From IMG/VR virus record IMGVR_UViG_3300009073_000002: DNA of 64,000 nucleotides, one strand, 5' to 3'. The notes beneath the pieces are model-generated. The model was given only the letters and a program-made list of their open reading frames with translations, made no database searches and was not told where the DNA came from. The position numbers and the translations under genes are program-made. The stretch comes from a virus. Below, piece after piece: positions 5,645 through 63,518 of the stretch (the stretch's first letter is position 1; each line of letters begins with the position of its first letter).

Positions 5645-6319
5645 ATGCAAAAGAAACTATACGAATTAACAGAAGAGCAAGTCAATCTCCAATTCAAAAT
5701 CGAAAGAATTGGAGAGATACTTGCCACAGAAGAGCTTACTCCTGAATTGGAGTATGAACTTAAAGAGCTTGAAGCAGAGATGGCGTTCTCTCAAGTGAAT
5801 GCAAACTCTAAGATCATGAGTATCTGGAAAGTCATTCAGAACATGAAGCAAGACATCGATATGATCAATGGTGAGTTGAAGCCATTCAAGGATGAGGCAG
5901 CGAGACTTGGATCACGTATTAAAAAGAAGAAGAATGATATAGCTAGACTGGAAAGGTATGTTGATTCTTACTATACTGCCATAAAGCATGATAAGTCGAA
6001 GAATGTTGATCATGGATTATTTACTATCGGTTTTACACGAAAGCAGCTGTATGAGATTCCTCAGAAATTAGTTATGGGTTTAAAGAAATTGCTCAATTTC
6101 AGCACATCGATTAAGAGAGATGCCTTTAATGAATTTTGTGATGAGAATGATATCTCTGATACTGATAAGAAGTTATTGAAGAAGTTACTCAATGATGCAG
6201 TGGACAGAACATTTGATCCATCGTTGGCTAAGTCTGAGTACAATAAGATTATCAAGCCAGTTGCTACTACAAGTGATTTATGTGATTATAGTGATACACG
6301 AGTCCTTAAATTTAAGTAA
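5645..6319 (+). CDS. coiled-coil protein, Gp157-like (putative)
   Basis: The N-terminus KKLYELTEEQVNLQ..., the heptad-rich sequence and the position next to the SSB gene resemble the siphovirus Gp157 family as I remember it. Confidence 0.5.
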   Translation: MQKKLYELTEEQVNLQFKIERIGEILATEELTPELEYELKELEAEMAFSQVNANSKIMSIWKVIQNMKQDIDMINGELKPFKDEAARLGSRIKKKKNDIARLERYVDSYYTAIKHDKSKNVDHGLFTIGFTRKQLYEIPQKLVMGLKKLLNFSTSIKRDAFNEFCDENDISDTDKKLLKKLLNDAVDRTFDPSLAKSEYNKIIKPVATTSDLCDYSDTRVLKFK

Positions 6320-10375: not shown

Positions 10376-11878
10376 ATGTTGAGACCAGACTTATTTAGGA
10401 ATAATGTAGTTGAAAAGTTAATCCCAAGGGATTACCAGGAAGTGTCTGTTCGTAGTATAATTGACTATATAAAGTCTGCTACTACTTTTGATAAGAAAAG
10501 AGGCGTATATGTAGGTCCGGTAGCGTGTGGAAAAAGTTTCATAATAGCATTAGCGGCATTAGAGTTGGGAGAGCCAATATTGGTATTGCAGCCGAGTAAG
10601 GAATTGCTTGGTCAGAATTACGAGAAGTATACTGATGCAGGAGGTGTAGCGACTATATTCAGTGCTAGTATGAAAATGAAAGTATTGAGCTCTAATACCT
10701 ATGCAACTCTAGGGTCAATTAAAAATCAAGCCGCTAAACTTAAAAAATTAGGAGTAAGATATGTATTCATAGATGAATGTCATAAAGGTTATAGTCCTGA
10801 AGAGAAAGGAGTAGCTAGAATATTTTTGGAAGCATTAGATCCAACTTGTGTCGTTGGATTCACTGCGACACCAGTGAGATTAGAGTATGAAAAGAAAAAT
10901 GGTTTGCAGAAAAGCGGTATGCAGATTAAATTCATTACAAGTACTAATCCTACTTTATTTAATGATGTCATTCATATTGTTCAGATATCTGAAATCAAAC
11001 AATACTGGCCAGATATCTCTCTTTATGAATTTGACTTTGACGAATCAGCCCTAGTAACGACTAAAGATGGTACAGACTTCACAGATAAGAGTGCGTCGGA
11101 AGCAGTTGAGAAGAATAAAGTAAATCGAAATATTTGCATGCATTTGAAGTCAATTTCTAAAGAGAGGAAATCAACTTTAGTTTTTGTAGATAGTGTAGCT
11201 TCTGCTCATAAGTTTAGTAAATGGTGTAACGAATCATTAGGACTTAACACAGCAGTTGTTTATGGTGGAATGAATCTTGATCTAAGGAGTGATATTGTTG
11301 AAGAATTTAAGAACTTAGAAATTGATGTTATTTTCAATTTCGGTACATTAACTACTGGTTTCGATCACCCTGAATTGGATTGTGTTGTATTAGGTCGGCC
11401 AATGAATTCTTATAGTGACTTTTATCAAATGATAGGTAGAGGATTAAGAATTCATATAGAAAAAGAGAATTGCATGGTACTTGATTTCTGTAATAACTTT
11501 AGAAGAATGGGAGATGTAAGAAAAATGGAGATACTACATGTGCCTTACTGGGGATGGGCTATATTTGTTGGAGGAAAGCTATTGACTGATATTCCAATTA
11601 AAGGACCAAAACTTACTTTAGAACAAACTATAGTTTTAGGAAAGACTAGAGAATATAATTTGAAGAAACCTCGAATTGGATTTGGGCAGTATACAGAATG
11701 TGGATATGAAAAACTTGTAGAAGATCCGGGTTACTTGAGGTACTTACTGCCAAAAATAGAAGCTAAAATTGCAGAGGAAGGAAAGAAGATACCAAAGAAA
11801 TACATAAGATTTGTAGAAATGGGAAAATTTATTTTAAATATAGAAAAAGAATTAAAAAATGTTCGAAAAGCAGCCTAA
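10376..11878 (+). CDS. SF2 DEAD/DEAH-box DNA helicase
   Basis: Walker A GPVACGKS, DECH box (FIDECH), FTATP and motif VI QMIGRGLR. Confidence 0.8.
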   Translation: MLRPDLFRNNVVEKLIPRDYQEVSVRSIIDYIKSATTFDKKRGVYVGPVACGKSFIIALAALELGEPILVLQPSKELLGQNYEKYTDAGGVATIFSASMKMKVLSSNTYATLGSIKNQAAKLKKLGVRYVFIDECHKGYSPEEKGVARIFLEALDPTCVVGFTATPVRLEYEKKNGLQKSGMQIKFITSTNPTLFNDVIHIVQISEIKQYWPDISLYEFDFDESALVTTKDGTDFTDKSASEAVEKNKVNRNICMHLKSISKERKSTLVFVDSVASAHKFSKWCNESLGLNTAVVYGGMNLDLRSDIVEEFKNLEIDVIFNFGTLTTGFDHPELDCVVLGRPMNSYSDFYQMIGRGLRIHIEKENCMVLDFCNNFRRMGDVRKMEILHVPYWGWAIFVGGKLLTDIPIKGPKLTLEQTIVLGKTREYNLKKPRIGFGQYTECGYEKLVEDPGYLRYLLPKIEAKIAEEGKKIPKKYIRFVEMGKFILNIEKELKNVRKAA

Positions 11879-13460
11879 CAAACAGCAAGAGAAAGTACCA
11901 CCACAACCTAGAGGTGGTGCTAAAATTCCACCTACAGAGACTGAGAGTATAATTAGTCAGGCTATAGAAGTGGTTGAAAAAGTATTTGACACACTTGGTC
12001 CAAATGGAAAGAGAGTAGTTTATCAGAGTGCCGAAGGGATCGGCGCGAGTAAGGATGGTGTGACCATTTTAAAACATCTCTGGCATTACGATGAGAATGT
12101 AGACAATGCAATTGAATTGATCCGTCAAGGAAGTGAAAAGACTCTCCAAGAGGAAGGTGATGGAACAACAACAACAGCAATGTTAGCTTGTATCCTTTAT
12201 GGAATAATCACAGACAAAGCATTCGCGGAAATTCCACATCACCAGAAAGTGAAAATTGTAGAGGATTCTGAAAAAGCGATTCTGGAAGAACTTGAAGTAA
12301 TGATGCTTCCATGTGATACTGAAGAAGCATTAATCAAGATTGCTACCATCTCAGCAAATAATGATGCTGAAATAGGACAGCACATAGGATCTCTAGTCTC
12401 TAAGTACAGAGAGAATTCATTTATGATGATCAATAAGGGACGAAATCCAAAGACCATTGTAGAAGAAATGAAGGGAGTCTATTTAGATTGTTCTATTCAC
12501 AGTGATTACTTTTTAGATGATGGGCCTGCAATTAATAGGCCTCAGTCAGTATTATTGATGCTGAATGAAGCTGTTGGGTCAAGTAAAGGAATCATTGAAG
12601 ATTGTGCCGAGTATTGTATAGATAGAGGGATTAAGAGTATGATACTAATGTGTGAGTCAGTAGAGCCGACAATCTTAGAAGTATTTAAGGAATATGCTCA
12701 AACTGGATTTGACATAGTTCCAATCGGGCTACCTGATCATGGTGAGTTAAGACACCAAAAAATGGAGGATCTAGCTAGTGTAACTGGTGGAACCTACTTT
12801 CGAAGTGGAAAAGGAAAAAGCACTGATCCTGCGGATTGCTTAGGTGAAATAGCATATGCTAAGATATTGAAGTACGAAGTAGTATTGTCATTACTCGATT
12901 CAGCAGTTCCTAAAGTAAAATCAAGGACAAAGTATCTCAATGAGAAACTTGCAGAAATAGAAAAGTCAGATATTGTAAATAGAGATTTTGCAATAGATAA
13001 CATGAAGGAAAGAATCTCTTTAATCAATTCTAGTACTTGTACAATCATCGTAGGAGGACGAACTCCTGCGGAAGTAAGCGAGAAGTACGATCGGTATGAT
13101 GATGCCAAGAGAGCGACTATTAGTGCGCTGCAAAACGGTTTAGTGGTAACTTCATCTCAGGCATTGCATCAAGTGTCAGATGAATTAATCCTAAGAAAAG
13201 GGAATTCTGATTTGGAAGATGCTATTTATAATGCTCTAATAAAGCCATTTGAGTATGTCACAAAGGATTTATATGTAGAGTTTAGACCATTGAAAGGAGA
13301 AGCTTTGAATATTATTACAGATACATTAGGAGAACCACTAGAGGTAGGTGCAATCGATCCGTATGCTGTTGTGAGAAGTTGTGTTAAAAATGGATTTAGT
13401 GTAGCAAAAATGTTGATGAGTATTTCATCATTTGTGAAATTAAAGCCACATAGGAGGTAA
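11859..13460 (+). CDS. groEL: GroEL/Cpn60-family chaperonin
   Basis: LGPNGKRVV...ASKDGVTILK...EEGDGTTTTAMLA matches the GroEL equatorial-domain signature. 533 aa. Confidence 0.8.
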   Translation: MFEKQPNKQQEKVPPQPRGGAKIPPTETESIISQAIEVVEKVFDTLGPNGKRVVYQSAEGIGASKDGVTILKHLWHYDENVDNAIELIRQGSEKTLQEEGDGTTTTAMLACILYGIITDKAFAEIPHHQKVKIVEDSEKAILEELEVMMLPCDTEEALIKIATISANNDAEIGQHIGSLVSKYRENSFMMINKGRNPKTIVEEMKGVYLDCSIHSDYFLDDGPAINRPQSVLLMLNEAVGSSKGIIEDCAEYCIDRGIKSMILMCESVEPTILEVFKEYAQTGFDIVPIGLPDHGELRHQKMEDLASVTGGTYFRSGKGKSTDPADCLGEIAYAKILKYEVVLSLLDSAVPKVKSRTKYLNEKLAEIEKSDIVNRDFAIDNMKERISLINSSTCTIIVGGRTPAEVSEKYDRYDDAKRATISALQNGLVVTSSQALHQVSDELILRKGNSDLEDAIYNALIKPFEYVTKDLYVEFRPLKGEALNIITDTLGEPLEVGAIDPYAVVRSCVKNGFSVAKMLMSISSFVKLKPHRR

Positions 13461-43261: not shown

Positions 43262-44761
43262 TTAAATATTATGCAAGTTAGCTTTCCCCATACTGTTAGA
43301 GATTGCAGTGATTAATTGAGGTGGAATACTGTTTCCGATCCCCTTAGTTTGCTGTGCTTTAGTGCCAGTTAAAATGTAATCCTCTCCAAATCCCTGACAC
43401 ATAGCCAATTCCCTAGGATTTAGCCATCTCATTTTTACATCTAGCAAGTATGTACCGTCACCAATATAGCAAGATATCAGAGTATTATGATCTTTGGTTG
43501 TAATGGTGTGCAATGGCTTATCCAGACTGCTCGCGTGATTACCTCCAAAATGCTTAGAGATGAACTGAAGTAACTCTACTGATACCTCTTTCTCAAATGG
43601 TCCTCTTACGATATCACAAGTCACAAGATTAGACTTTGTATTCGTTGTAATCGTTCCTAACGGCTTATCTATCGATGAGACGTTGTACTCCCCAGAAAAG
43701 TATTTATCTATGAACTGTAGCTTCTCAACAGTCACCAGAGCCTTCTCATCCTTGGTTACAATAGTCTTTAGCGGCTCGTCAATGCTTCCGTAGTTGCTCG
43801 CCCCATGATAATGTTGGGTGTAGAAGGTTTCTGTAGTAATCAATGCGTGTCTATCCTTAGTTGTAATCGTATGTAGTGGATCATCAATTGAAGATACATT
43901 TTGCTCTGATCTATAAGACTTGGCTATGAAGGGTACACCCGGACCATATTTTTTGATTCCGTATGCGATTCTCTTTAGCGTGTTTTCCACTAATGGATTA
44001 GGGTCGCCATTTTTTCGAGTACGTCCAAAGATTGAATTACCATGATTATTTAGATCGATACATTCCCTACATGGAATCCAAGGCTCAAGACCAAACATAC
44101 CAGGCTTTTCAGTATGTGTTGGCTCTGGCCATTCAATCTCCCAACCTTCTTTAGTAAACAATAAGAATAATCTTTTCCTAGAAGTTGGAGCACCATAGTC
44201 AGCTGCATTGAGAACTCTCTTGCTGTAATTCTTAAAACCGTAATCATACTGCATTTTGTAGCACCACTTATGAAAGTATTGACCTTTCTTTTTAGGGTCA
44301 GGAATCATTACTGGCTTCCCTTGATTCTTACCTCGAGTAATTTTAATTATTTTGCCATCTGAATCTCTCTTAGGAATAAGAGGACCCCAATCTAAAAACT
44401 CAACTACATTTTCAATGATTACGATGTTAGCTCCTGTGTACTTGATGTATCTAAAAATCTCATTAGCCATTGCTCGACTGTCAGGATCTCGCGATGAACC
44501 TCCTTTGGCTTTAGAATGATTCGTACATTCAATCCCTGCAGCTAGTACATCGGCTTTCTTAATTACAGCTTCATTGGACTTGTAGAGGTCTGCTATTACA
44601 AATTCTACATCTTTATGATTTCTGGAATTAGTCTCTATTGCATGTTGGTCATGATTAAGACCTTGGATTACTGTAAAGTAATCGCTGCGATGCATCCCTT
44701 CTGTCATGCCGCCTGATCCGCAAAGTAAGTCTACTGCTTCGAATTGTTGATTTGATTTCAT
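43262..44761 (-). CDS. DNA (cytosine-5) methyltransferase with four tandem repeat modules
   Basis: Motif I DLLCGSGG, IV-like GIECT, VI ENVVEF, QGF, X GIGNSIPP. Four repeats of SxDxPLxTIxTxxxxxL. Confidence 0.85.
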   Translation of the reverse strand: MKSNQQFEAVDLLCGSGGMTEGMHRSDYFTVIQGLNHDQHAIETNSRNHKDVEFVIADLYKSNEAVIKKADVLAAGIECTNHSKAKGGSSRDPDSRAMANEIFRYIKYTGANIVIIENVVEFLDWGPLIPKRDSDGKIIKITRGKNQGKPVMIPDPKKKGQYFHKWCYKMQYDYGFKNYSKRVLNAADYGAPTSRKRLFLLFTKEGWEIEWPEPTHTEKPGMFGLEPWIPCRECIDLNNHGNSIFGRTRKNGDPNPLVENTLKRIAYGIKKYGPGVPFIAKSYRSEQNVSSIDDPLHTITTKDRHALITTETFYTQHYHGASNYGSIDEPLKTIVTKDEKALVTVEKLQFIDKYFSGEYNVSSIDKPLGTITTNTKSNLVTCDIVRGPFEKEVSVELLQFISKHFGGNHASSLDKPLHTITTKDHNTLISCYIGDGTYLLDVKMRWLNPRELAMCQGFGEDYILTGTKAQQTKGIGNSIPPQLITAISNSMGKANLHNI

Positions 44762-49183: not shown

Positions 49184-50677
49184 TTAGCCATTGACATCCA
49201 TTACTGGCATAACAAGTCTAATTTCATCTTTGTCATCATTCTCAATAATGAGACATTTATTTGCTGATATGTACTGTATAGTAGATACACTATCAGTAGG
49301 ACTTAGAGTTGCAGCCATAAACTTAGCTGATACAGATAATTGGCGTACATCGTTTTTAAACTGGGATGAACAGTTAATCAGCTTAGTCGCGGACGTATTA
49401 TGGTCGATGTCGTGTGCTGTGATTCTAACTTCTGAGTCACTAATATTAAGTACTACTTGGTTAGTAGTCTTATTAGCAAAAAAGGCAGTTTGAGTTAATG
49501 CACTTTTAAAGCGGTCTGTAGCTACTTTAAAGGAATTACCCTCTTTAGCATAGTTTGTTGGTAATACTGCATCTACATTGGGAAACTTCTCATCTTTAAG
49601 TCTACATTGATAAGTTAATTGACCCTCTGTACAAAGTATGAACTTCTTACCTAATACCTTTAGAGTAAATCTTTCAGAGAAAGAAGACAGTACAGACATT
49701 AGAAGTTTCTTTGGTACAATGATATCAAAAGGATTACCAGTATAGTCTATTGTTTTTTTGATTAGAATTTGTGCATCTGTAGACTCTATCACTAATTTAC
49801 CTTTTTTAGCATATATATGGACTCCACACATAGCCGATCTCAATTCATCTTCGCTACAAAAACTAATTGACTCTGTTAGAATCTTTCTGAGTCTTGTATC
49901 AATTGTGAGTGCTGCTACTTGTTTATCTGTGCATAGATCGTGACAGTCTTCTTGTGGTTCATCCAATGGTATCTTACAGTTTACATCTTGACCACTGATT
50001 TTGAGCATTTCTCTTTGACCTTTAAGAATCTCAAACTTATGCGTACTATCACTAAATTTAGATATCTCTCTAATTCCTGCATCTACTGATACATCAAAGT
50101 CATCACAACCGATGTAAGTAGAAACGATTGCAGTTGAGTCAATATTGGTAGCCATTATTTCCAATGTACCGTTTGTGGCTTTAAATCTGAAGTCGTCTAG
50201 AGTTGATATAACTGAGTTAACAGATCTTGCAGTATTTACTTTATCGAGCATATCCGCTAAGACCTTCATTTCAAGCTTAAAACTTGCACCCTTGGTTGTA
50301 CTAGCTTTTTTCTTTTTGTTCTGTTGTACTGGCTTTACTGACTCCACAGAGTCAGTTTGAGAGTTGTCTTTTGTAGATTTCACCACATCCGCGGCAGCCC
50401 CTTTAGTTGTTGACTTCTGCTTAGATTTCTGCTTCTCTACTACTAACGATTCTACATAAGAAGAATAAGACTCTTCTGTTAGTAGTTCTTCTCCTACATT
50501 TACATAAAAAACTTTACCTCTCTCACTAAGCAAATAAGCATCTGGAAACATCTCCAATACTACTTCTTTACCAATACCTTTAGTAGATAACTTCACTCTA
50601 CCCTTAATCGGTTCTACTTTACTCTTCTGTAGTATCTTCTTACCCTCTACTACATTACTAATGTTAATTGAATTCAT
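49184..50677 (-). CDS. dnaN: DNA polymerase sliding clamp (DnaN-like) with about 130-aa N-terminal extension
   Basis: LADMLDKVNTARSVNSVISTLDDFRFKATNGTLEIMATNIDST resembles the start of DnaN domain I. About 365 aa follow it. Confidence 0.65.
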   Translation of the reverse strand: MNSINISNVVEGKKILQKSKVEPIKGRVKLSTKGIGKEVVLEMFPDAYLLSERGKVFYVNVGEELLTEESYSSYVESLVVEKQKSKQKSTTKGAAADVVKSTKDNSQTDSVESVKPVQQNKKKKASTTKGASFKLEMKVLADMLDKVNTARSVNSVISTLDDFRFKATNGTLEIMATNIDSTAIVSTYIGCDDFDVSVDAGIREISKFSDSTHKFEILKGQREMLKISGQDVNCKIPLDEPQEDCHDLCTDKQVAALTIDTRLRKILTESISFCSEDELRSAMCGVHIYAKKGKLVIESTDAQILIKKTIDYTGNPFDIIVPKKLLMSVLSSFSERFTLKVLGKKFILCTEGQLTYQCRLKDEKFPNVDAVLPTNYAKEGNSFKVATDRFKSALTQTAFFANKTTNQVVLNISDSEVRITAHDIDHNTSATKLINCSSQFKNDVRQLSVSAKFMAATLSPTDSVSTIQYISANKCLIIENDDKDEIRLVMPVMDVNG

Positions 50678-59617: not shown

Positions 59618-59625
59618 CCAATTAT

Positions 59626-59699
59626 GGTAGCCTTGTGCTGTTTTGCAATGCAGCCGGACTGTGGATCTGGTGCGACGGGTTGGATTCCCGAGGTTTACC
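59626..59699 (+). tRNA. tRNA-His (GUG) with encoded G-1; atypical D and T loops
   Basis: Anticodon arm CCGGA-CTGTGGA-TCTGG. G-1 lies opposite C73. One acceptor mismatch. The D loop lacks GG and the T loop is TTGGATT. Confidence 0.55.
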
Positions 59700-59706
59700 C
59701 AATAAT

Positions 59707-59823: not shown

Positions 59824-59903
59824 GGTCAGGTAGCCACCCTCCTCTTCTAAAGGAGTAAGTGTAATTGGAGCTGAAAATCGGGGTTCGAATCCCTGTCTGA
59901 TCA
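59824..59903 (+). tRNA. atypical tRNA-like gene, anticodon-like loop UCU (Arg)
   Basis: 7-bp acceptor GGTCAGG/TCTGATC and T-arm CGGGG-TTCGAAT-CCCTG. The hairpin CTCCT-CTTCTAA-AGGAG starts only 8 nt after the acceptor strand and is followed by 23 nt. Confidence 0.4.
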
Positions 59904-61590: not shown

Positions 61591-61771
61591 TTTTTGATTT
61601 TATTTGTTCTTTAAGCCATAAAAAAGCTATTTCTTTTGATTCAAAATCAGAGCTTGCATCTGATACATATACACCAACTCTTTGTTTAGTGCTTTTAGCT
61701 ATAAATGATACATAATGCTCTGTTCCATTATGCTCTACCTCTGTTAATTCTATAAATCTATCTAAAGTCAT
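61583..61771 (-). CDS. hypothetical protein
   Basis: 62-aa ORF. A TATATTTG box ends 4 nt before the ATG, so the mRNA may be leaderless. Confidence 0.5.
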   Translation of the reverse strand: MTLDRFIELTEVEHNGTEHYVSFIAKSTKQRVGVYVSDASSDFESKEIAFLWLKEQIKSKNE

Positions 61772-61801
61772 AAATCAAATATACAAAAAATTTTTATTTA
61801 G

Positions 61802-61876
61802 TACACCAGGTGGGCTACGATCCCACGATCCCTCGATTAAAAGTCGAGTACTTTAGTCCAACTAAGCTACTGGTGC
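61802..61876 (-). tRNA. tRNA-Lys (UUU), unusual T loop
   Basis: Acceptor GCACCAG/CTGGTGT, anticodon loop CTTTTAA, T-arm GTGGG-ATCGTAG-CCCAC. Confidence 0.7.
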
Positions 61877-61881
61877 ATTGG

Positions 61882-61954
61882 AGAACGTAGACGGGCTCGA
61901 ACCGTCGTATCCGGATTTGCAGTCCGGCGCCTATGCCATCTCAGCCATACGTTC
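61882..61954 (-). tRNA. tRNA-Cys (GCA); CCA encoded
   Basis: Acceptor GAACGTA/TACGTTC, anticodon loop CTGCAAA, T-arm GACGG-TTCGAGC-CCGTC. Confidence 0.85.
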
Positions 61955-61959
61955 ATTAG

Positions 61960-62027
61960 CACAGGATGAATGAGTCGAACACTCTCGTAAGGGTTTGGAA
62001 TCCTTTTAGCTCCACAGCCTATCCTGC
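61960..62027 (-). tRNA. tRNA-Trp (CCA), short D arm
   Basis: Acceptor GCAGGAT/ATCCTGT, anticodon loop TTCCAAA, T-arm GAGTG-TTCGACT-CATTC. 68 nt. Confidence 0.65.
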
Positions 62028-62033
62028 ATAAAT

Positions 62034-62113
62034 GATTGATCCTCGGATTCGAACCGACCTCTGCCATTGCCACTCACTTTTCAGCGCGGGAGGAATCGAA
62101 CCTCAAAATCAAT
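62034..62113 (-). tRNA. degenerate/atypical tRNA-like element (no assignable anticodon arm)
   Basis: Acceptor ATTGATT/GATCAAT, a 3' T-arm GTCGG-TTCGAAT-CCGAG, and a second T-arm-like hairpin GAGG-TTCGATT-CCTC where the D arm should be. Confidence 0.3.
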
Positions 62114-62118
62114 CATAG

Positions 62119-62190
62119 CGACAATGGACAGATTCGAACTGCCGTCCTCGGAACTTCACCCCGATGCTAAGCCACCTCAGCTACATTGTC
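62119..62190 (-). tRNA. tRNA-Phe (GAA)
   Basis: Acceptor GACAATG/CATTGTC, anticodon loop GTGAAGT, T-arm GGCAG-TTCGAAT-CTGTC. Confidence 0.85.
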
Positions 62191-62193
62191 AAA

Positions 62194-62230
62194 TAAAAAA
62201 AGCCTCGCAAAATTAATTACGAGGCTTTTT
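62194..62230. terminator. bidirectional terminator hairpin (stronger on the minus strand)
   Basis: A7-AGCCTCG...CGAGGCT-T5. Confidence 0.65.
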
Positions 62231-62316
62231 CATATGATCTAATCACATAGGTTTAGCAATCTCGCAATTCATGCAAAGAGAAACAAAACCATTTTTTTGT
62301 AATTAAAATCATAATG

Positions 62317-62336
62317 CAAATATAGTGTTATATTTG
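62317..62336. promoter_or_regulatory. divergent pair of TATATTTG -7 boxes
   Basis: CAAATATA (minus strand, 62317..62324) and TATATTTG (plus strand, 62329..62336). Confidence 0.45.
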
Positions 62337-62348
62337 TTAAAAAATAAC

Positions 62349-62675
62349 ATGATATCAAAACTTTCTTCAGAAGTAATCGATTTCGTAGCTAAAGTAGAAG
62401 CCAAATATCTTGAATACATGCAGGAGAGATTCCCTAATAATCGTATTGAGGAATTTGAAGTAACTGAAAACAAAAAGTACGTTAAGGTTATTCAATCAGG
62501 TGCCTTCTGCTTTATCAATAGAGAAAATGGGGATATCTATATGGCTAAAACATTTAGTTCTCCATCATTAAAAAATCCTCGAGGTAATTTATTCTCTAAA
62601 CAACTGGGAATGGAAGCGATATCTGAAAGATCTGCAGGAGGTAGAATCCATCCCCATATTAGGTATCTAAGATAA
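62349..62675 (+). CDS. hypothetical protein
   Basis: ATG at 62349, 12 nt after the -7 box. The track start at 62325 lies inside the promoter. Confidence 0.55.
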   Translation: MISKLSSEVIDFVAKVEAKYLEYMQERFPNNRIEEFEVTENKKYVKVIQSGAFCFINRENGDIYMAKTFSSPSLKNPRGNLFSKQLGMEAISERSAGGRIHPHIRYLR

Positions 62676-62679
62676 AAAG

Positions 62680-62750
62680 CGGGCCATCCCGGGCTCGAAC
62701 CGAGGATAACGGAGAGACAGTCCGTCGTATTACCACTATACTAATGGCCC
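62680..62750 (-). tRNA. tRNA-Asp (GUC)
   Basis: Acceptor GGGCCAT/ATGGCCC, anticodon loop CTGTCTC (U at position 37), T-arm CTCGG-TTCGAGC-CCGGG. Confidence 0.8.
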
Positions 62751-62754
62751 ATTG

Positions 62755-62828
62755 AGCCTAAGCAGGGATTCGAACCCCGGACATCTTCATTACAAATGAA
62801 GCGCTCTGACCAGCTGAGCTACTTAGGC
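62755..62828 (-). tRNA. tRNA-Thr (UGU)
   Basis: Acceptor GCCTAAG/CTTAGGC, anticodon loop TTTGTAA, T-arm CGGGG-TTCGAAT-CCCTG. Confidence 0.9.
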
Positions 62829-63265
62829 AAGTTTTTATTTAAATGAGACATTTTACCTCCACATCTTCGGCTACATGTAGGTGTTTTTCCCATTGATAGT
62901 TTATGATTTATATTTTTACAGTCTTTTGAAAATTCATTTTTACAAATTGGACAAATTAAGGTTATCATTGTTTTAGATTTCCCAATATGCTTATTGTGCT
63001 TCACTATATTCTCTTTTCTGGAAAGGATTTGAAGATTTGATATAGAATCATTCATTTTATTTTCATCTATATGATCTACATGCTCTTCTGGCCTTAAATA
63101 CCTTCTTACATGACAACTCATTATATATCTAGCATATGAAGTCGAAGTTTTTGTCCCATCTCTCCGAACCAATGCGACAACTCTTCTTGGTTCTTTGTTT
63201 GTATTTACATATCCTGCGATGTAATCTTTATAATATGGCCATCTTAATACTATTTTTGTTGACAT
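62819..63265 (-). CDS. HNH homing-type endonuclease
   Basis: EHVDHIDENKMNDSISNLQILSRKEN (H-N-H) plus a C-terminal CPIC...CSRRC zinc motif. Embedded in the tRNA array. Confidence 0.8.
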   Translation of the reverse strand: MSTKIVLRWPYYKDYIAGYVNTNKEPRRVVALVRRDGTKTSTSYARYIMSCHVRRYLRPEEHVDHIDENKMNDSISNLQILSRKENIVKHNKHIGKSKTMITLICPICKNEFSKDCKNINHKLSMGKTPTCSRRCGGKMSHLNKNLPK

Positions 63266-63285
63266 ATAAATTTATTTACTTAATG

Positions 63286-63362
63286 TATCTGCGGAGAGAC
63301 TTGAACTCTCATGTGACCAATTACGCTTTCGACAAGATATAAGCTTGAGGCGATACGCAGAC
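63286..63362 (-). tRNA. atypical tRNA-like gene, anticodon-like loop UAU (Ile)
   Basis: Acceptor GTCTGCG/CGCAGAT and T-arm GAGAG-TTCAAGT-CTCTC. The hairpin CAAG-CTTATAT-CTTG starts 8 nt after the acceptor strand and is followed by 22 nt. Confidence 0.4.
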
Positions 63363-63374
63363 AATATAACATTG

Positions 63375-63445
63375 TAGTTCTGGCAGGACTTGAACCTGCG
63401 TCCATGGTATGTAACACCACTGCTCGGCCACTGAGCTACAGAACT
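63375..63445 (-). tRNA. tRNA-Val (UAC)
   Basis: Acceptor AGTTCTG/CAGAACT, anticodon loop GTTACAT, T-arm GCAGG-TTCAAGT-CCTGC. Confidence 0.85.
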
Positions 63446-63518
63446 AGAGCCGCTTTCATTTATAACGCGCCAACGTCACCTTCTAAAAAGGCAGGTCATT
63501 ACAAGCGGGACCTGTTTG

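What the first reader, a model, noticed from the sequence alone, without database searches (positions are those of the whole stretch)
63286..63362. Second member of the re-ordered tRNA-like class (anticodon-like UAU)
On the minus strand the gene reads GTCTGCG-TATCGCCT-[CAAG CTTATAT CTTG]-TCGAAAGCGTAATTGGTCACAT-[GAGAG TTCAAGT CTCTC]-CGCAGAT-A (77 nt). It shares GTAATTGG with the locus at 59824. CGC in the linker is complementary to the GCG that immediately precedes that motif. I could not form a canonical D arm in any register. UAU would decode AUA, a common codon in AT-rich genomes.
Basis: seen in the sequence. Interest (0 to 1): 0.75.

Follow-up and report, generated by a model that had tools for sequence, protein, structure and literature searches.

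The report
Phage tRNA-Ile with rearranged core
This 77-base gene is an intact member of a widespread, apparently undescribed family of phage transfer RNAs in which the D-loop segment sits after the anticodon arm instead of before it, so standard tRNA finders miss them.

Summary
ARAGORN finds nothing. The Rfam tRNA model reaches only 25.3 bits (cut-off 29), and only by deleting the D arm.

It is not a decayed pseudogene. Pattern scans and two covariance models recovered 147 distinct sequences with the same layout in viral contigs, phage-like MAG contigs and cultured phages, where they are unannotated.

The layout is: acceptor, UA, 3-bp helix H1 (5' strand), anticodon arm, short linker, H1 (3' strand), UAAUUGG D-loop-like motif, T arm.

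- In a scan that fixed neither H1 nor the anticodon, H1 paired perfectly in 89 of 89 sequences, in 12 combinations.
- The "R15" base of the motif covaries with the base before the T stem, like the tRNA 15:48 pair.
- The base after GG is A in 18 of 18 Arg-anticodon members and U in 116 of 118 Ile members, matching the bacterial ArgRS and IleRS identity sets.
- The discriminator is A in all Ile members.

The window holds three members: Ile-UAU (this locus), Ile-GAU and Arg-UCU. It holds no canonical tRNA for these anticodons, while AUA is 37% of Ile codons and AGA 63% of Arg codons.

Best reading: a working tRNA-Ile(UAU) with a block-swapped core. I found no published description.

The parts
63286..63362 (-). 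Whole gene: non-canonical (core-re-ordered) tRNA-Ile(UAU), 77 nt including the discriminator; no encoded CCA
   Evidence: R1 38.3 bits; R2 94 bits; gapless fit to the 77-nt family
63356..63362 (-). Acceptor stem 5' strand GTCTGCG (RNA positions 1-7)
   Evidence: Pairs with 63287..63293. The family acceptor is 95-97% paired and all 7 pairs covary
63353..63355 (-). U8 A9 U10 (TAT). T8 and A9 are invariant in the family; U10 is proposed to stand at position 22
   Evidence: Invariant columns; the position-22 equivalence is inference
63350..63352 (-). H1 5' strand CGC (RNA 11-13), a D-stem-like helix strand
   Evidence: Pairs with GCG at 63324..63326. H1 is 100% paired and all three pairs covary
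63332..63348 (-). Anticodon arm T CAAG CTTATAT CTTG T (RNA 15-31): 4-bp stem under a conserved Y.Y mismatch; anticodon TAT at 63339..63341
   Evidence: columns 16-19/27-30 are 97.7% paired; 15:31 unpaired in 65/66; U33 and A37 in 89/89
63327..63331 (-). Linker y, CGAAA (RNA 32-36); GAAA is invariant in the 77-nt family
   Evidence: GAAA in 112/112
63324..63326 (-). H1 3' strand GCG (RNA 37-39)
63311..63323 (-). Displaced D-loop-like segment TAATTGG TCACAT (RNA 40-52). Proposed equivalents: U13 A14 A15 U16 U17 G18 G19 U20 .. A21 .. U48
   Evidence: Column 42:52 covariation A-U / G-C / G.G. The base after GG tracks amino-acid identity. T40, A41, G45, G46, C50 and A51 are invariant
63294..63310 (-). 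T arm GAGAG TTCAAGT CTCTC (RNA 53-69)
   Evidence: 98.8% paired; 4 of 5 pairs covary; G57:C65, equivalent to G53:C61, is invariant
63286..63293 (-). Acceptor 3' strand CGCAGAT plus discriminator A (63286)
   Evidence: Discriminator A in 89/89 and in 118/118 Ile members
59824..59903 (+). Second member of the class in the window: Arg-UCU type, H1 = CAC/GTG, A after GG
   Evidence: R1 94.8 bits; R2 38.9 bits
63697..63773 (-). Third member of the class in the window: Ile-GAU type, H1 = ATC/GAT, shortened D-loop-like AGCGG, G15 with C before the T stem
   Evidence: R1 36.2 bits; R2 29.3 bits; Rfam 39.7 bits, only with the D arm deleted; ARAGORN none

Best explanation
Window 63286..63362 (minus strand) is a functional gene for a structurally non-canonical tRNA-Ile with anticodon UAU. 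It belongs to a widespread family so far seen only in phage or phage-like contigs.

Structure. [quoted passage not shown] The core is block-swapped. Canonical order is acceptor, 8-9, [D-stem 5' strand + D loop], [D-stem 3' strand, 26, anticodon arm], variable loop, T arm. Here the order is acceptor, U8 A9, [3-nt strand H1-5', C, anticodon arm], linker, [H1-3', U A R Y Y G G N .. A], .. Y48, T arm.

H1 therefore encloses the anticodon arm, and the D-loop-like motif lies where the variable loop normally is.

Inferred fold. In canonical tRNA the D stem and anticodon stem form one coaxial stack, with a continuous strand (22 to 31) and a nicked strand (39 to 44 | 10 to 13). The re-ordered RNA keeps both strands in place and polarity. 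It seals the nick with the linker and opens the 21|22 junction. It can therefore still form an L shape with the usual elbow contacts (U8-A14, R15-Y48, G18G19 with the T loop).

Inferred function. It is co-transcribed with the upstream tRNA-Val (11-nt spacer) in the minus-strand tRNA array. RNase P and 3' trimming process it, and CCA is added (none is encoded). Host IleRS charges it, using A35, U36, A37, U20 and A73. It then reads AUA, a very frequent codon in this 35% GC phage.

Shown here: the sequence anatomy, family conservation, helix and 15:48 covariation, identity-linked position 20, tRNA-array context, and codon usage.

Inferred only: the 3D fold, processing, charging, decoding, and an origin by tandem duplication with deletion (permutation by duplication).
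For: (1) Family size. One search gave 141 pattern hits in 139 loci, 136 of them fully tRNA-like, in a scan that fixed neither the anticodon nor H1. One search counts 147 distinct members overall.

(2) H1.
- 100% paired in 66/66 sequences with compensatory changes.
- All three pairs covary.
- 89/89 perfect pairing in 12 combinations without filtering on H1.
- RNAalifold predicts H1 independently.
- Mutual information: the top 19 of all column pairs are the 18 variable helix pairs plus 42:52.

(3) D-loop behaviour of the motif.
- When position 15 is A, the base before the T stem is U. This holds in all 66 distinct sequences of the scan that left that base free; in the pooled 93 of 93 some sequences come from scans that fixed it.
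- When position 15 is G, that base is C (15) or G (7), and never U.
- The base after GG is A in 18/18 Arg members and U in 116/118 Ile members. This matches bacterial identity sets: Arg A20; Ile U20 and A73 (PMC9976931).

(4) Anticodon loop and discriminator. U33 and A37 are present in 89/89, and the discriminator is A in 89/89.

(5) Context.
- 106 of 125 members have canonical tRNAs within 1 kb, always on the same strand.
- In Kehishuvirus 'tikkala' a member fills the single unannotated gap in a dense annotated tRNA array.
- In Pseudomonas phage IME180 a member with an encoded CCA lies in the 3-kb stretch examined, where ARAGORN finds no tRNA.

(6) Need. ATA is 37% of Ile codons and AGA 63% of Arg codons in 66 window ORFs. 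The window has no canonical tRNA-Ile or tRNA-Arg(UCU).
Against: - There are no expression, aminoacylation or structure data of any kind; everything is comparative sequence analysis.
- The single-sequence minimum-free-energy fold does not form H1 and is only marginally better than shuffles (z = -1.75).
- The anticodon stem has only 4 Watson-Crick pairs.
- H1 is only 3 bp.
- Other bacterial IleRS determinants listed in PMC9976931 (C4-G69, U12-A23, C29-G41, A38) are not conserved in the family (pair types and loop-position counts).
- Some large phages carry a canonical tRNA with the same anticodon next to the re-ordered one (L122, L040, L370). This raises the possibility of a different role.
- The window ends at 64000, so a canonical tRNA-Ile could lie just outside it.
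Confidence: 0.72

Rival explanations
1. It is a D-armless tRNA whose long 3' region is only an enlarged variable loop. H1 merely lengthens the anticodon arm, and the molecule does not reproduce the canonical L-shaped core. It would then work, if at all, like mitochondrial armless tRNAs.
For: The Rfam tRNA model aligns it exactly this way: D arm deleted and an 18-nt variable-region insertion. No 3D data exist.
Against: The 'insertion' carries the universal D-loop nucleotides in order (A14, R15, G18, G19). It covaries with the base before the T stem like 15:48. Its position after GG switches A/U with Arg/Ile identity as aaRS identity rules predict. U8 is invariant. Armless mitochondrial tRNAs lack G18G19 and are much shorter.
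Confidence: 0.12
2. It is a tRNA mimic that is not used in translation. Examples would be a decoy or sponge for host tRNA-targeting defence nucleases or modification enzymes, or a regulatory RNA.
For: Some huge phages keep a canonical isoacceptor right beside the re-ordered one (L122 6001-6080 next to 6086-6157). tRNA-cleaving antiphage systems, and phage tRNAs that counter them, are known (PMC13056530).
Against: Here, and in the 3-kb IME180 stretch examined, no canonical counterpart is present. The codons concerned are among the most used. Identity elements outside the anticodon (position 20, discriminator) are conserved by amino-acid class, which a pure nuclease decoy would not need. About 13% encode CCA.
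Confidence: 0.1
3. It is a decayed tRNA pseudogene or a chance tRNA-like stretch left in a tRNA cluster.
For: It is missed by ARAGORN and falls below the Rfam cut-off. An HNH homing-endonuclease-like ORF lies next to it, and such elements can disrupt genes.
Against: It matches a 77-column family consensus without a single indel. All helices are intact. It carries its own compensatory H1 variant, CGC/GCG, which is also seen in unrelated contigs L362 and L375. R2 scores it 94 bits.
Confidence: 0.02
4. It is a precursor that RNA cutting and re-ligation (or an intron) rearranges into a canonical cloverleaf, as with the permuted or split tRNA genes of algae and archaea.
For: Block order differs from canonical tRNA by a simple swap. 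Permuted tRNA genes exist elsewhere (PMC3978253, listed).
Against: The acceptor strands are already at the two ends. No bulge-helix-bulge motifs are evident by eye, though I did not search for them. Restoring canonical order would need two internal cuts and two ligations. From my own knowledge, bacteria lack the tRNA splicing endonuclease. The covarying H1 and the conserved GAAA linker argue that the encoded order is the functional one.
Confidence: 0.02

Closest known systems
Canonical bacterial and phage tRNA (Rfam RF00005), specifically tRNA-Ile reading AUA
   Same: It has a 7-bp acceptor with discriminator A73. It has a 5-bp T arm with the TTCRA loop and G53:C61. Its 7-nt anticodon loop has U33 and A37. 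U8, A14, R15, G18, G19 and Y48 are all present. It lies inside a phage tRNA array.
   Different: The D-stem 5' strand plus D loop lie after the anticodon arm, not before it. The 'D stem' is 3 bp and encloses the anticodon arm. The anticodon stem has 4 pairs plus a conserved Y.Y. It scores below the Rfam cut-off and is missed by ARAGORN. From my own knowledge, most bacteria read AUA with a CAU tRNA modified to lysidine rather than with a UAU anticodon.
D-armless mitochondrial tRNAs (for example mammalian mt-tRNA-Ser(AGY), nematode and mite minimal tRNAs)
   Same: There is no D hairpin between the acceptor and anticodon arms; a short linker takes its place. Reviews of non-canonical tRNAs cover this class (PMC7609411).
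   Different: Those tRNAs are short (about 54-65 nt), lack G18G19 and the elbow contacts, and need adapted mitochondrial partners. This family is full length (76-95 nt) and retains every elbow nucleotide in a displaced block. It occurs in phages that use bacterial machinery.
Circularly permuted tRNA genes of red and green algae and Thermofilum
   Same: A tRNA gene whose segments are in non-canonical order; an origin by duplication is plausible.
   Different: There the whole gene is permuted (3' half before 5' half) and processing restores a normal tRNA. Here only the inner core blocks are swapped, the termini are normal, and the mature RNA is expected to keep the swapped order.
Allo-tRNAs (8/4 and 9/3 acceptor/T branches; PMC5389517)
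   Same: Unusual tRNA architectures found by metagenome mining, with UAU and Arg anticodons frequent among them (PMC7609411).
   Different: Allo-tRNAs have a normal D arm position, a long variable arm and an 8/4 or 9/3 branch. This family has a covariation-supported 7/5 branch and a displaced D block.
Phage tRNAs that escape tRNA-targeting defence through sequence changes (van den Berg et al. 2023, cited in PMC13056530)
   Same: Phage-encoded tRNAs that depart from host tRNAs, possibly under selection by host nucleases.
   Different: Those carry point changes in the anticodon loop of otherwise canonical tRNAs. Here the backbone topology of the core is changed, and no link to defence has been shown.

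Membership tests
tRNA, canonical cloverleaf (Rfam RF00005 / ARAGORN) | 7-bp acceptor stem with unpaired discriminator | tested here: met
   GTCTGCG/CGCAGAT plus A. All 7 family pairs covary.
tRNA, canonical cloverleaf (Rfam RF00005 / ARAGORN) | T arm: 5-bp stem, 7-nt loop T54 T55 C56 R57 A58, G53:C61 | tested here: met
   GAGAG TTCAAGT CTCTC. T58, T59, C60, A62 and G57:C65 are invariant in the family.
tRNA, canonical cloverleaf (Rfam RF00005 / ARAGORN) | Anticodon arm with 7-nt loop, U33 and purine 37 | tested here: met
   The loop is CTTATAT. U33 and A37 are present in 89/89. The stem has only 4 standard pairs plus Y.Y.
tRNA, canonical cloverleaf (Rfam RF00005 / ARAGORN) | D arm hairpin between position 9 and the anticodon arm | tested here: not met
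   Only 7 nt separate the acceptor and anticodon arm. The Rfam alignment deletes the D arm. ARAGORN makes no call.
tRNA, canonical cloverleaf (Rfam RF00005 / ARAGORN) | Score at or above the Rfam gathering threshold (29 bits) | tested here: not met
   25.3 bits on a 106-nt slice. No hit at E<=10 in 4.7 kb.
tRNA, canonical cloverleaf (Rfam RF00005 / ARAGORN) | Aminoacylation and decoding on the ribosome | not testable with these tools
   Indirect support only: position 20 and the discriminator follow Arg/Ile identity rules, and codon demand is high.
Re-ordered-core phage tRNA family (defined here; models R1, R2) | 3-bp helix H1 between the nucleotides after U8 A9 N and the 3 nt just 5' of the UARYYGG motif, enclosing the anticodon arm | tested here: met
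   CGC/GCG in this locus. The family is 100% paired with covariation at all three pairs.
Re-ordered-core phage tRNA family (defined here; models R1, R2) | D-loop-like motif U A R Y Y G G downstream of the anticodon arm, with R covarying with the base before the T stem | tested here: met
   TAATTGG ... T in this locus. A-U 93, G-C 11, G.G 8, and no A with C/G or G with U.
Re-ordered-core phage tRNA family (defined here; models R1, R2) | Significant covariance-model score from a model that excludes the locus | tested here: met
   R1, built from four Arg-type members, scores it 38.3 bits, E=6e-7.
D-armless mitochondrial-type tRNA | Short molecule (about 54-65 nt) lacking G18G19 and elbow contacts, with a short variable region | tested here: not met
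   It is 77 nt. A 22-nt region carries A14, R15, G18 and G19.
Circularly permuted tRNA gene | 3' half upstream of 5' half, with the acceptor ends internal and joined by a processed linker | tested here: not met
   Acceptor strands are at the two termini of the 77-nt unit.
Allo-tRNA (8/4 or 9/3) | 12-bp acceptor branch split 8/4 or 9/3, plus a long variable arm | tested here: not met
   A 7/5 split is supported by covariation. This locus has no variable-arm hairpin.

The most novel reading that the evidence does not exclude
Phages carry a large, previously unrecognised class of translationally active tRNAs (Ile, Arg, and a few Tyr, Val and CAU types). Their core is a topological permutation of the cloverleaf: the D-stem 5' strand and D loop are transplanted downstream of the anticodon arm, yet the L shape and synthetase identity elements are preserved. 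They are invisible to standard tRNA finders, so phage tRNA repertoires and codon-supply analyses are systematically incomplete. The rewiring may be selected because it makes these tRNAs poor substrates for host tRNA-targeting immunity or host-specific processing.
Probability: 0.55. Interest if true: 0.9.

Novelty: new variant of a known kind. Interest (0 to 1): 0.85.

Why it matters
[quoted passage not shown] A natural family working with bacterial ribosomes, synthetases, RNase P and EF-Tu, but with a re-wired core, would have several consequences.

- It would show that tRNA function tolerates a change of backbone topology.
- It would give engineers a new orthogonal scaffold.
- It would provide a natural experiment on which core contacts matter.
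- It would mean that tRNA counts in phage genomes and metagenomes are underestimates. The missing tRNAs read AUA and AGA, codons often cited in phage-host codon-mismatch arguments.

Cultured carriers make it directly testable: the Pseudomonas phages IME180, HHBS10_2 and vB_PaeM_Ty, and the crAss-like Kehishuvirus 'tikkala'.

Tried and rejected
- **Canonical folds.** ARAGORN and Rfam at gathering and at E<=10 find no canonical D arm.
- **Single-sequence folding.** The fold of this locus was uninformative: it does not form H1, and z = -1.75.
- **Close relatives of this phage.** Megablast of the tRNA region against GenBank phages found only fragments of ordinary tRNAs. tblastn of a 522-aa ORF found nothing. 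A protein-guided locus search with the neighbouring 344-aa ORF found nothing. The 'canonical ortholog at the same position' test therefore could not be run. Only the same phage was found again (L242, L243).
- **Alignment.** MAFFT alignments of mixed-length members (A1, A2) mis-registered the anticodon arm and were dropped in favour of gapless subsets and model-based alignment. The R1-based alignment A4 also shifted H1 in CCCC-containing linkers and was not used for counting.
- **Pattern syntax.** None of these counted.
- **Extra pairing.** An idea that the CUG in the 3' segment of Arg-type members pairs with UAG after the acceptor was considered by eye and left untested.
- **Transcription signals.** The promoter and terminator scan of 61700..64000 gave nothing useful near the locus.
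- **Other odd stretches in the tRNA cluster.** Folding gave one possibly structured element (62028..62117) and three unremarkable ones.
- **Literature.** Seven full-text searches and look-ups in four papers found no description of this architecture. The library is incomplete, so prior publication cannot be excluded.
Full report

- It has a 7-bp acceptor helix and a textbook T arm.
- It has a hairpin whose 7-nt loop (C U UAU A U) looks like an anticodon loop.
- That hairpin begins only 7-8 nt after the acceptor strand, where the D arm should be.
- A 22-nt segment containing GTAATTGG sits between the hairpin and the T arm.

The locus lies 11 nt downstream of tRNA-Val (63374..63445), on the same strand, inside a tRNA cluster. 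An HNH-type ORF follows it (62819..63265).

**No canonical fold.**

- ARAGORN finds 13 tRNAs in the window but not this one.
- Rfam's tRNA model gives no hit here at its gathering score, nor at E<=10 over 4.7 kb.
- On a 106-nt slice it reaches 25.3 bits, below the cut-off of 29. It does so only by deleting the 15 D-arm positions and declaring 18 nt an insertion in the variable region.
- The single-sequence minimum-free-energy fold is unremarkable (z = -1.75).

**It belongs to a real family.** A scan of viral contigs for GTAATTGG at the right distance from a T loop was filtered for T-arm and acceptor pairing. This gave about 17 sequences with the same odd order as this locus and the window locus at 59824..59903. 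The shared order is:

- acceptor, TA, 1-2 nt;
- a 3-nt strand (H1-5');
- the anticodon arm;
- a linker of 2-15 nt;
- the complementary 3 nt (H1-3');
- TAATTGG and 6-13 more nt;
- T arm, acceptor.

H1 differed between sequences but always paired (CGG/CCG, CAG/CTG, CTC/GAG, CGA/TCG, CCC/GGG, CAC/GTG). In this locus it is CGC/GCG.

A covariance model (R1) was built from four Arg-type sequences that exclude this locus. It scored this locus 38.3 bits (E = 6e-7 in the window). It also revealed a third window member at 63697..63773, with anticodon GAU.

**The locus matches its subfamily exactly.** A second scan required CTTATA, GTAATTGG and a T loop. Parsing gave 66 distinct sequences, almost all of one 77-nt layout into which this locus fits without a gap:

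Acc7 | TATC NN C | Y NNNN CTTATAN NNNN Y | N GAAA | NN G | TAATTGG | T N ACAT | T arm | Acc7 | A

The locus is therefore not decayed. It is a consensus-perfect member with its own compensatory H1 variant. The same CGC/GCG variant recurs in unrelated contigs L362 and L375.

**Structure tests.**

- *66-sequence alignment A5.* H1 is 100% paired. Pair 12:38 is UA 40, CG 21, GC 4, UG 1. Pair 13:37 is CG 61, GC 3, AU 1, UA 1. The whole structure is 92.7% paired, against 65% in shuffles and at most 50% when partners are slid. The covariation score is 0.719 against 0.188 in shuffles (0 of 500 shuffles reach it).
- *Top of the anticodon stem.* The position equivalent to 27:43 is a conserved pyrimidine-pyrimidine mismatch, unpaired in 65 of 66. 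The anticodon stem therefore has 4 pairs.
- *Removing pattern bias.* The first patterns fixed the last G of H1-3'. Two further scans did not. The TAGTTGG scan and the GAAANNNTAATTGGTNACATNNNNNTTC scan show that this pair covaries too: ACC/GGT, TCC/GGA, GCC/GGC, AGA/TCT, ATC/GAT.
- *Unfiltered test of H1.* In the second of those scans, neither H1 nor the anticodon was specified or filtered. 136 of 139 hit loci were fully tRNA-like, and H1 was perfectly paired in 89 of 89 distinct sequences, in 12 combinations. Chance would give about 5%.
- *Independent prediction.* RNAalifold predicts acceptor + H1 + 4-bp anticodon stem + T arm.
- *Mutual information with APC correction, 112 sequences.* The 19 highest-ranked column pairs are the 18 variable helix pairs plus column pair 42:52.

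**The displaced motif behaves as a D loop.** Read as U13 A14 R15 Y16 Y17 G18 G19 N20, the motif contains the universally conserved D-loop nucleotides. T8, A41 (= A14), G45 and G46 (= G18, G19), and the T-loop T, T, C and A are invariant. Two further observations tie it to tRNA tertiary structure and recognition.

- *The 15:48 (Levitt) pair.* When the scan fixed A at '15', the base just before the T stem was free and was U in all 66 distinct sequences. When the scan fixed G at '15', it was C in 15 and G in 7 distinct sequences, and never U. Pooled counts are A-U 93, G-C 11, G.G 8, but that pool includes sequences from scans that fixed the U. This is the behaviour of the 15:48 pair. G15:G48 is listed among tRNA-Cys determinants in PMC9976931. 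Window member 63697..63773 has G15 with C.
- *Position 20.* The base after GG is A in 18 of 18 members with Arg anticodons, and U in 116 of 118 members with Ile anticodons. The discriminator is A in all 118 Ile members. Bacterial identity sets list A20 for Arg, and U20 and A73 for Ile (PMC9976931, Table 1). This locus has U20, A73, A35, U36 and A37.

**Proposed architecture (inference).** Established tRNA structure is taken from my own knowledge of yeast tRNA-Phe. The D stem stacks on the anticodon stem. One strand of that stack is continuous (22-25, 26, 27-31). The other is nicked (39-43, 44 | 10-13).

In the re-ordered RNAs the 5' block runs U(22), H1-5' (23-25), C(26), then the anticodon-stem 5' strand. 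The 3' block runs from the anticodon-stem 3' strand through the linker into H1-3' (10-12), U13, A14 and onward.

Both strands therefore keep their place and direction. The nick between 44 and 10 is sealed by the linker (GAAA is invariant in the 77-nt type), and the chain is opened between 21 and 22. The new joins, 9 to 22 and 21 to (46-48), connect residues that are neighbours in the canonical core. The result is a local circular permutation of the 10-44 region. A simple origin would be tandem duplication of that region followed by loss of the outer parts.

Longer Arg and Tyr members add a 4-bp helix H2. It pairs the first nucleotides after the anticodon arm with nucleotides after the motif: AGGC/GCCT, GGAC/GTCC, CCTT/AAGG, AGTC/GACT, CTGC/GCAG. 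H2 resembles a long variable arm whose loop holds H1-3' and the D-loop motif, which makes H1 and H2 a pseudoknot. This locus lacks H2.

**Distribution and context.**

- Across all fetched loci I count 147 distinct members: Ile (UAU, GAU) 118, CAU 7, Arg (UCU, CCU, ACG) 18, Tyr (GUA) 3, Val (UAC) 1. About 13% encode CCA.
- Two of the scans were anticodon-specific, so these totals are biased. The unbiased 77-nt-layout scan gave UAU 68, GAU 16, CAU 4, UAC 1.
- 106 of 125 members have ARAGORN tRNAs within 1 kb, always on the same strand, with a mean of 4.2. ARAGORN overlaps only 5 of the 125.
- In one genome per species of bacteria and archaea, the 13 true hits are all on MAG contigs. Several of these are 200-400 kb contigs, and one carries a dense tRNA array, so they look like binned phage contigs (my inference). 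The only isolate hit (Methylacidiphilum) is a chance match.
- In GenBank phages the elements are unannotated. They occur in two huge uncultured phages, in Pseudomonas phages IME180, HHBS10_2 and vB_PaeM_Ty, and in crAss-like phages.
- In IME180 a member with an encoded CCA lies in the 3-kb stretch examined, where ARAGORN finds no tRNA.
- In Kehishuvirus 'tikkala' a GAU member (R2 88.8 bits) exactly fills the one unannotated gap between annotated tRNA-Trp and tRNA-Met in a dense tRNA array.

**Demand in this phage.** The window is 35% GC. In 66 non-overlapping ORFs, ATA is 37% of Ile codons (28.9 per 1000) and AGA is 63% of Arg codons (30.8 per 1000). The window's canonical tRNAs include Arg-ACG but no Ile and no Arg-UCU. 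Those anticodons are supplied only by the three re-ordered genes: 63286..63362 UAU, 63697..63773 GAU, 59824..59903 UCU.

**Rivals.**

- A pseudogene is excluded by the family fit.
- 'Merely D-armless' is how Rfam sees it, but that view does not explain the 15:48-like covariation or the identity-linked position 20.
- A non-translational mimic remains possible. Some huge phages place a re-ordered tRNA next to a canonical tRNA with the same anticodon. It fits poorly with conserved synthetase determinants and with the lack of canonical counterparts here.
- Post-transcriptional re-ordering is implausible, because the termini are already correct and the encoded order is the one under structural selection.

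**Novelty.** Seven full-text searches and targeted reading found no description of such tRNAs. A 2020 review of non-canonical tRNAs does not mention phage or permuted-core types. A 2024 abstract states that all known bacterial tRNAs are canonical cloverleaves. The library is incomplete, so prior description elsewhere cannot be excluded. I rate this a new structural variant of a known kind of molecule, and of high interest.

**Limits.** Everything is comparative sequence analysis. Sequences are phylogenetically related, so counts are not independent events. No close relative of this particular phage was found, so positional orthology could not be examined. The 3D model, processing, charging and decoding are all inferred.

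Noticed in passing
window 63697..63773 (-): A third re-ordered tRNA in the window: TGGCACA TAATCGG CATGC CTGATAC GCATG ACTAA GAT AGCGG TTGAAAAC ATAGG TTCGAAT CCTAT TGTGCCA A. It has anticodon GAU, H1 = ATC/GAT, a shortened D-loop-like AGCGG, and G15 with C before the T stem. Rfam passes it (39.7 bits) only by deleting the D arm; ARAGORN misses it.
   Followed up: yes
It has H1 = CAC/GTG and A at the position-20 equivalent. Its closest look-alike among cultured phages is the element in Pseudomonas phage IME180.
   Followed up: yes
window 62028..62117 (-): A 90-nt stretch between tRNA-Phe and tRNA-Trp has a ~12-bp terminal helix (AUGAUUGAUUUU/GAGGAUCAAUCAU) and two hairpins with TTCGA-type loops. 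Its fold is better than shuffles (z = -2.6). It matches neither R1/R2 nor Rfam tRNA. It could be another odd tRNA-like RNA or a remnant.
   Followed up: partly
window 61959..62027 (-): tRNA-Trp (CCA) is called by ARAGORN at only 69 nt, but it is absent from the Rfam gathering-level list. It may be another atypical tRNA in this cluster.
   Followed up: no
window 62819..63265 (-): A 148-aa ORF with a weak HNH_3 hit lies 20 nt downstream of the locus, inside the tRNA array. It looks like a homing-endonuclease insertion between tRNA genes. The same protein occurs on Logan SRR5754787 and JGI 3300005647 contigs, which carry the same phage.
   Followed up: partly
window 10376..13460 (+) and 43262..44761, 49184..50677 (-): Gene content fits a phage with no close relative in GenBank phages at the loci tested. 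It includes a helicase, a GroEL-like chaperonin (phrog_5725, 2e-77), a DNA methyltransferase and a DNA polymerase processivity factor.
   Followed up: partly
L308 9215..9308 (+), L337 6440..6533 (+): Re-ordered members with a Tyr anticodon (GUA), 94 nt long. Here H1-3' (CGT) and an AGTGG D-loop-like motif sit in the loop of a variable-arm-like helix (CTGC/GCAG). The architecture is therefore not confined to Ile and Arg.
   Followed up: partly
L387 (77-nt member), L362, L366, L382, L394, L395, L415: One member of the 77-nt layout has anticodon UAC (Val), and several have CAU (Met or lysidine-dependent Ile) on an otherwise Ile-type body. UAU, UCU, UAC and CAU are single-base neighbours, which suggests identity switching within the family.
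   Followed up: no
L122 6001..6157 (LR745206.1, 635-kb uncultured phage): A re-ordered Arg-UCU gene lies 5 nt upstream of a canonical Arg-UCU gene. ARAGORN mis-calls the re-ordered one as a 90-nt tRNA-Arg at 5992..6081. A canonical tRNA with the same anticodon also sits on the same contig in L040 and L370.
   Followed up: partly
alignment A5, columns 6:71: A recurrent mismatch (mostly U.U) at acceptor pair 6:67 in 19 of 66 Ile-UAU members, for example AGGCATG/CTTGCCT. Kehishuvirus 'tikkala' has two such mismatches.
   Followed up: no
window 59621..59706 (+): The 86-nt gap between tRNA-Pro and tRNA-Arg contains a T-arm-like CGGG TTGGATT CCCG and a partly complementary pair of ends. Its fold is no better than shuffles (z = -0.27), and no model matches it.
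   Followed up: partly
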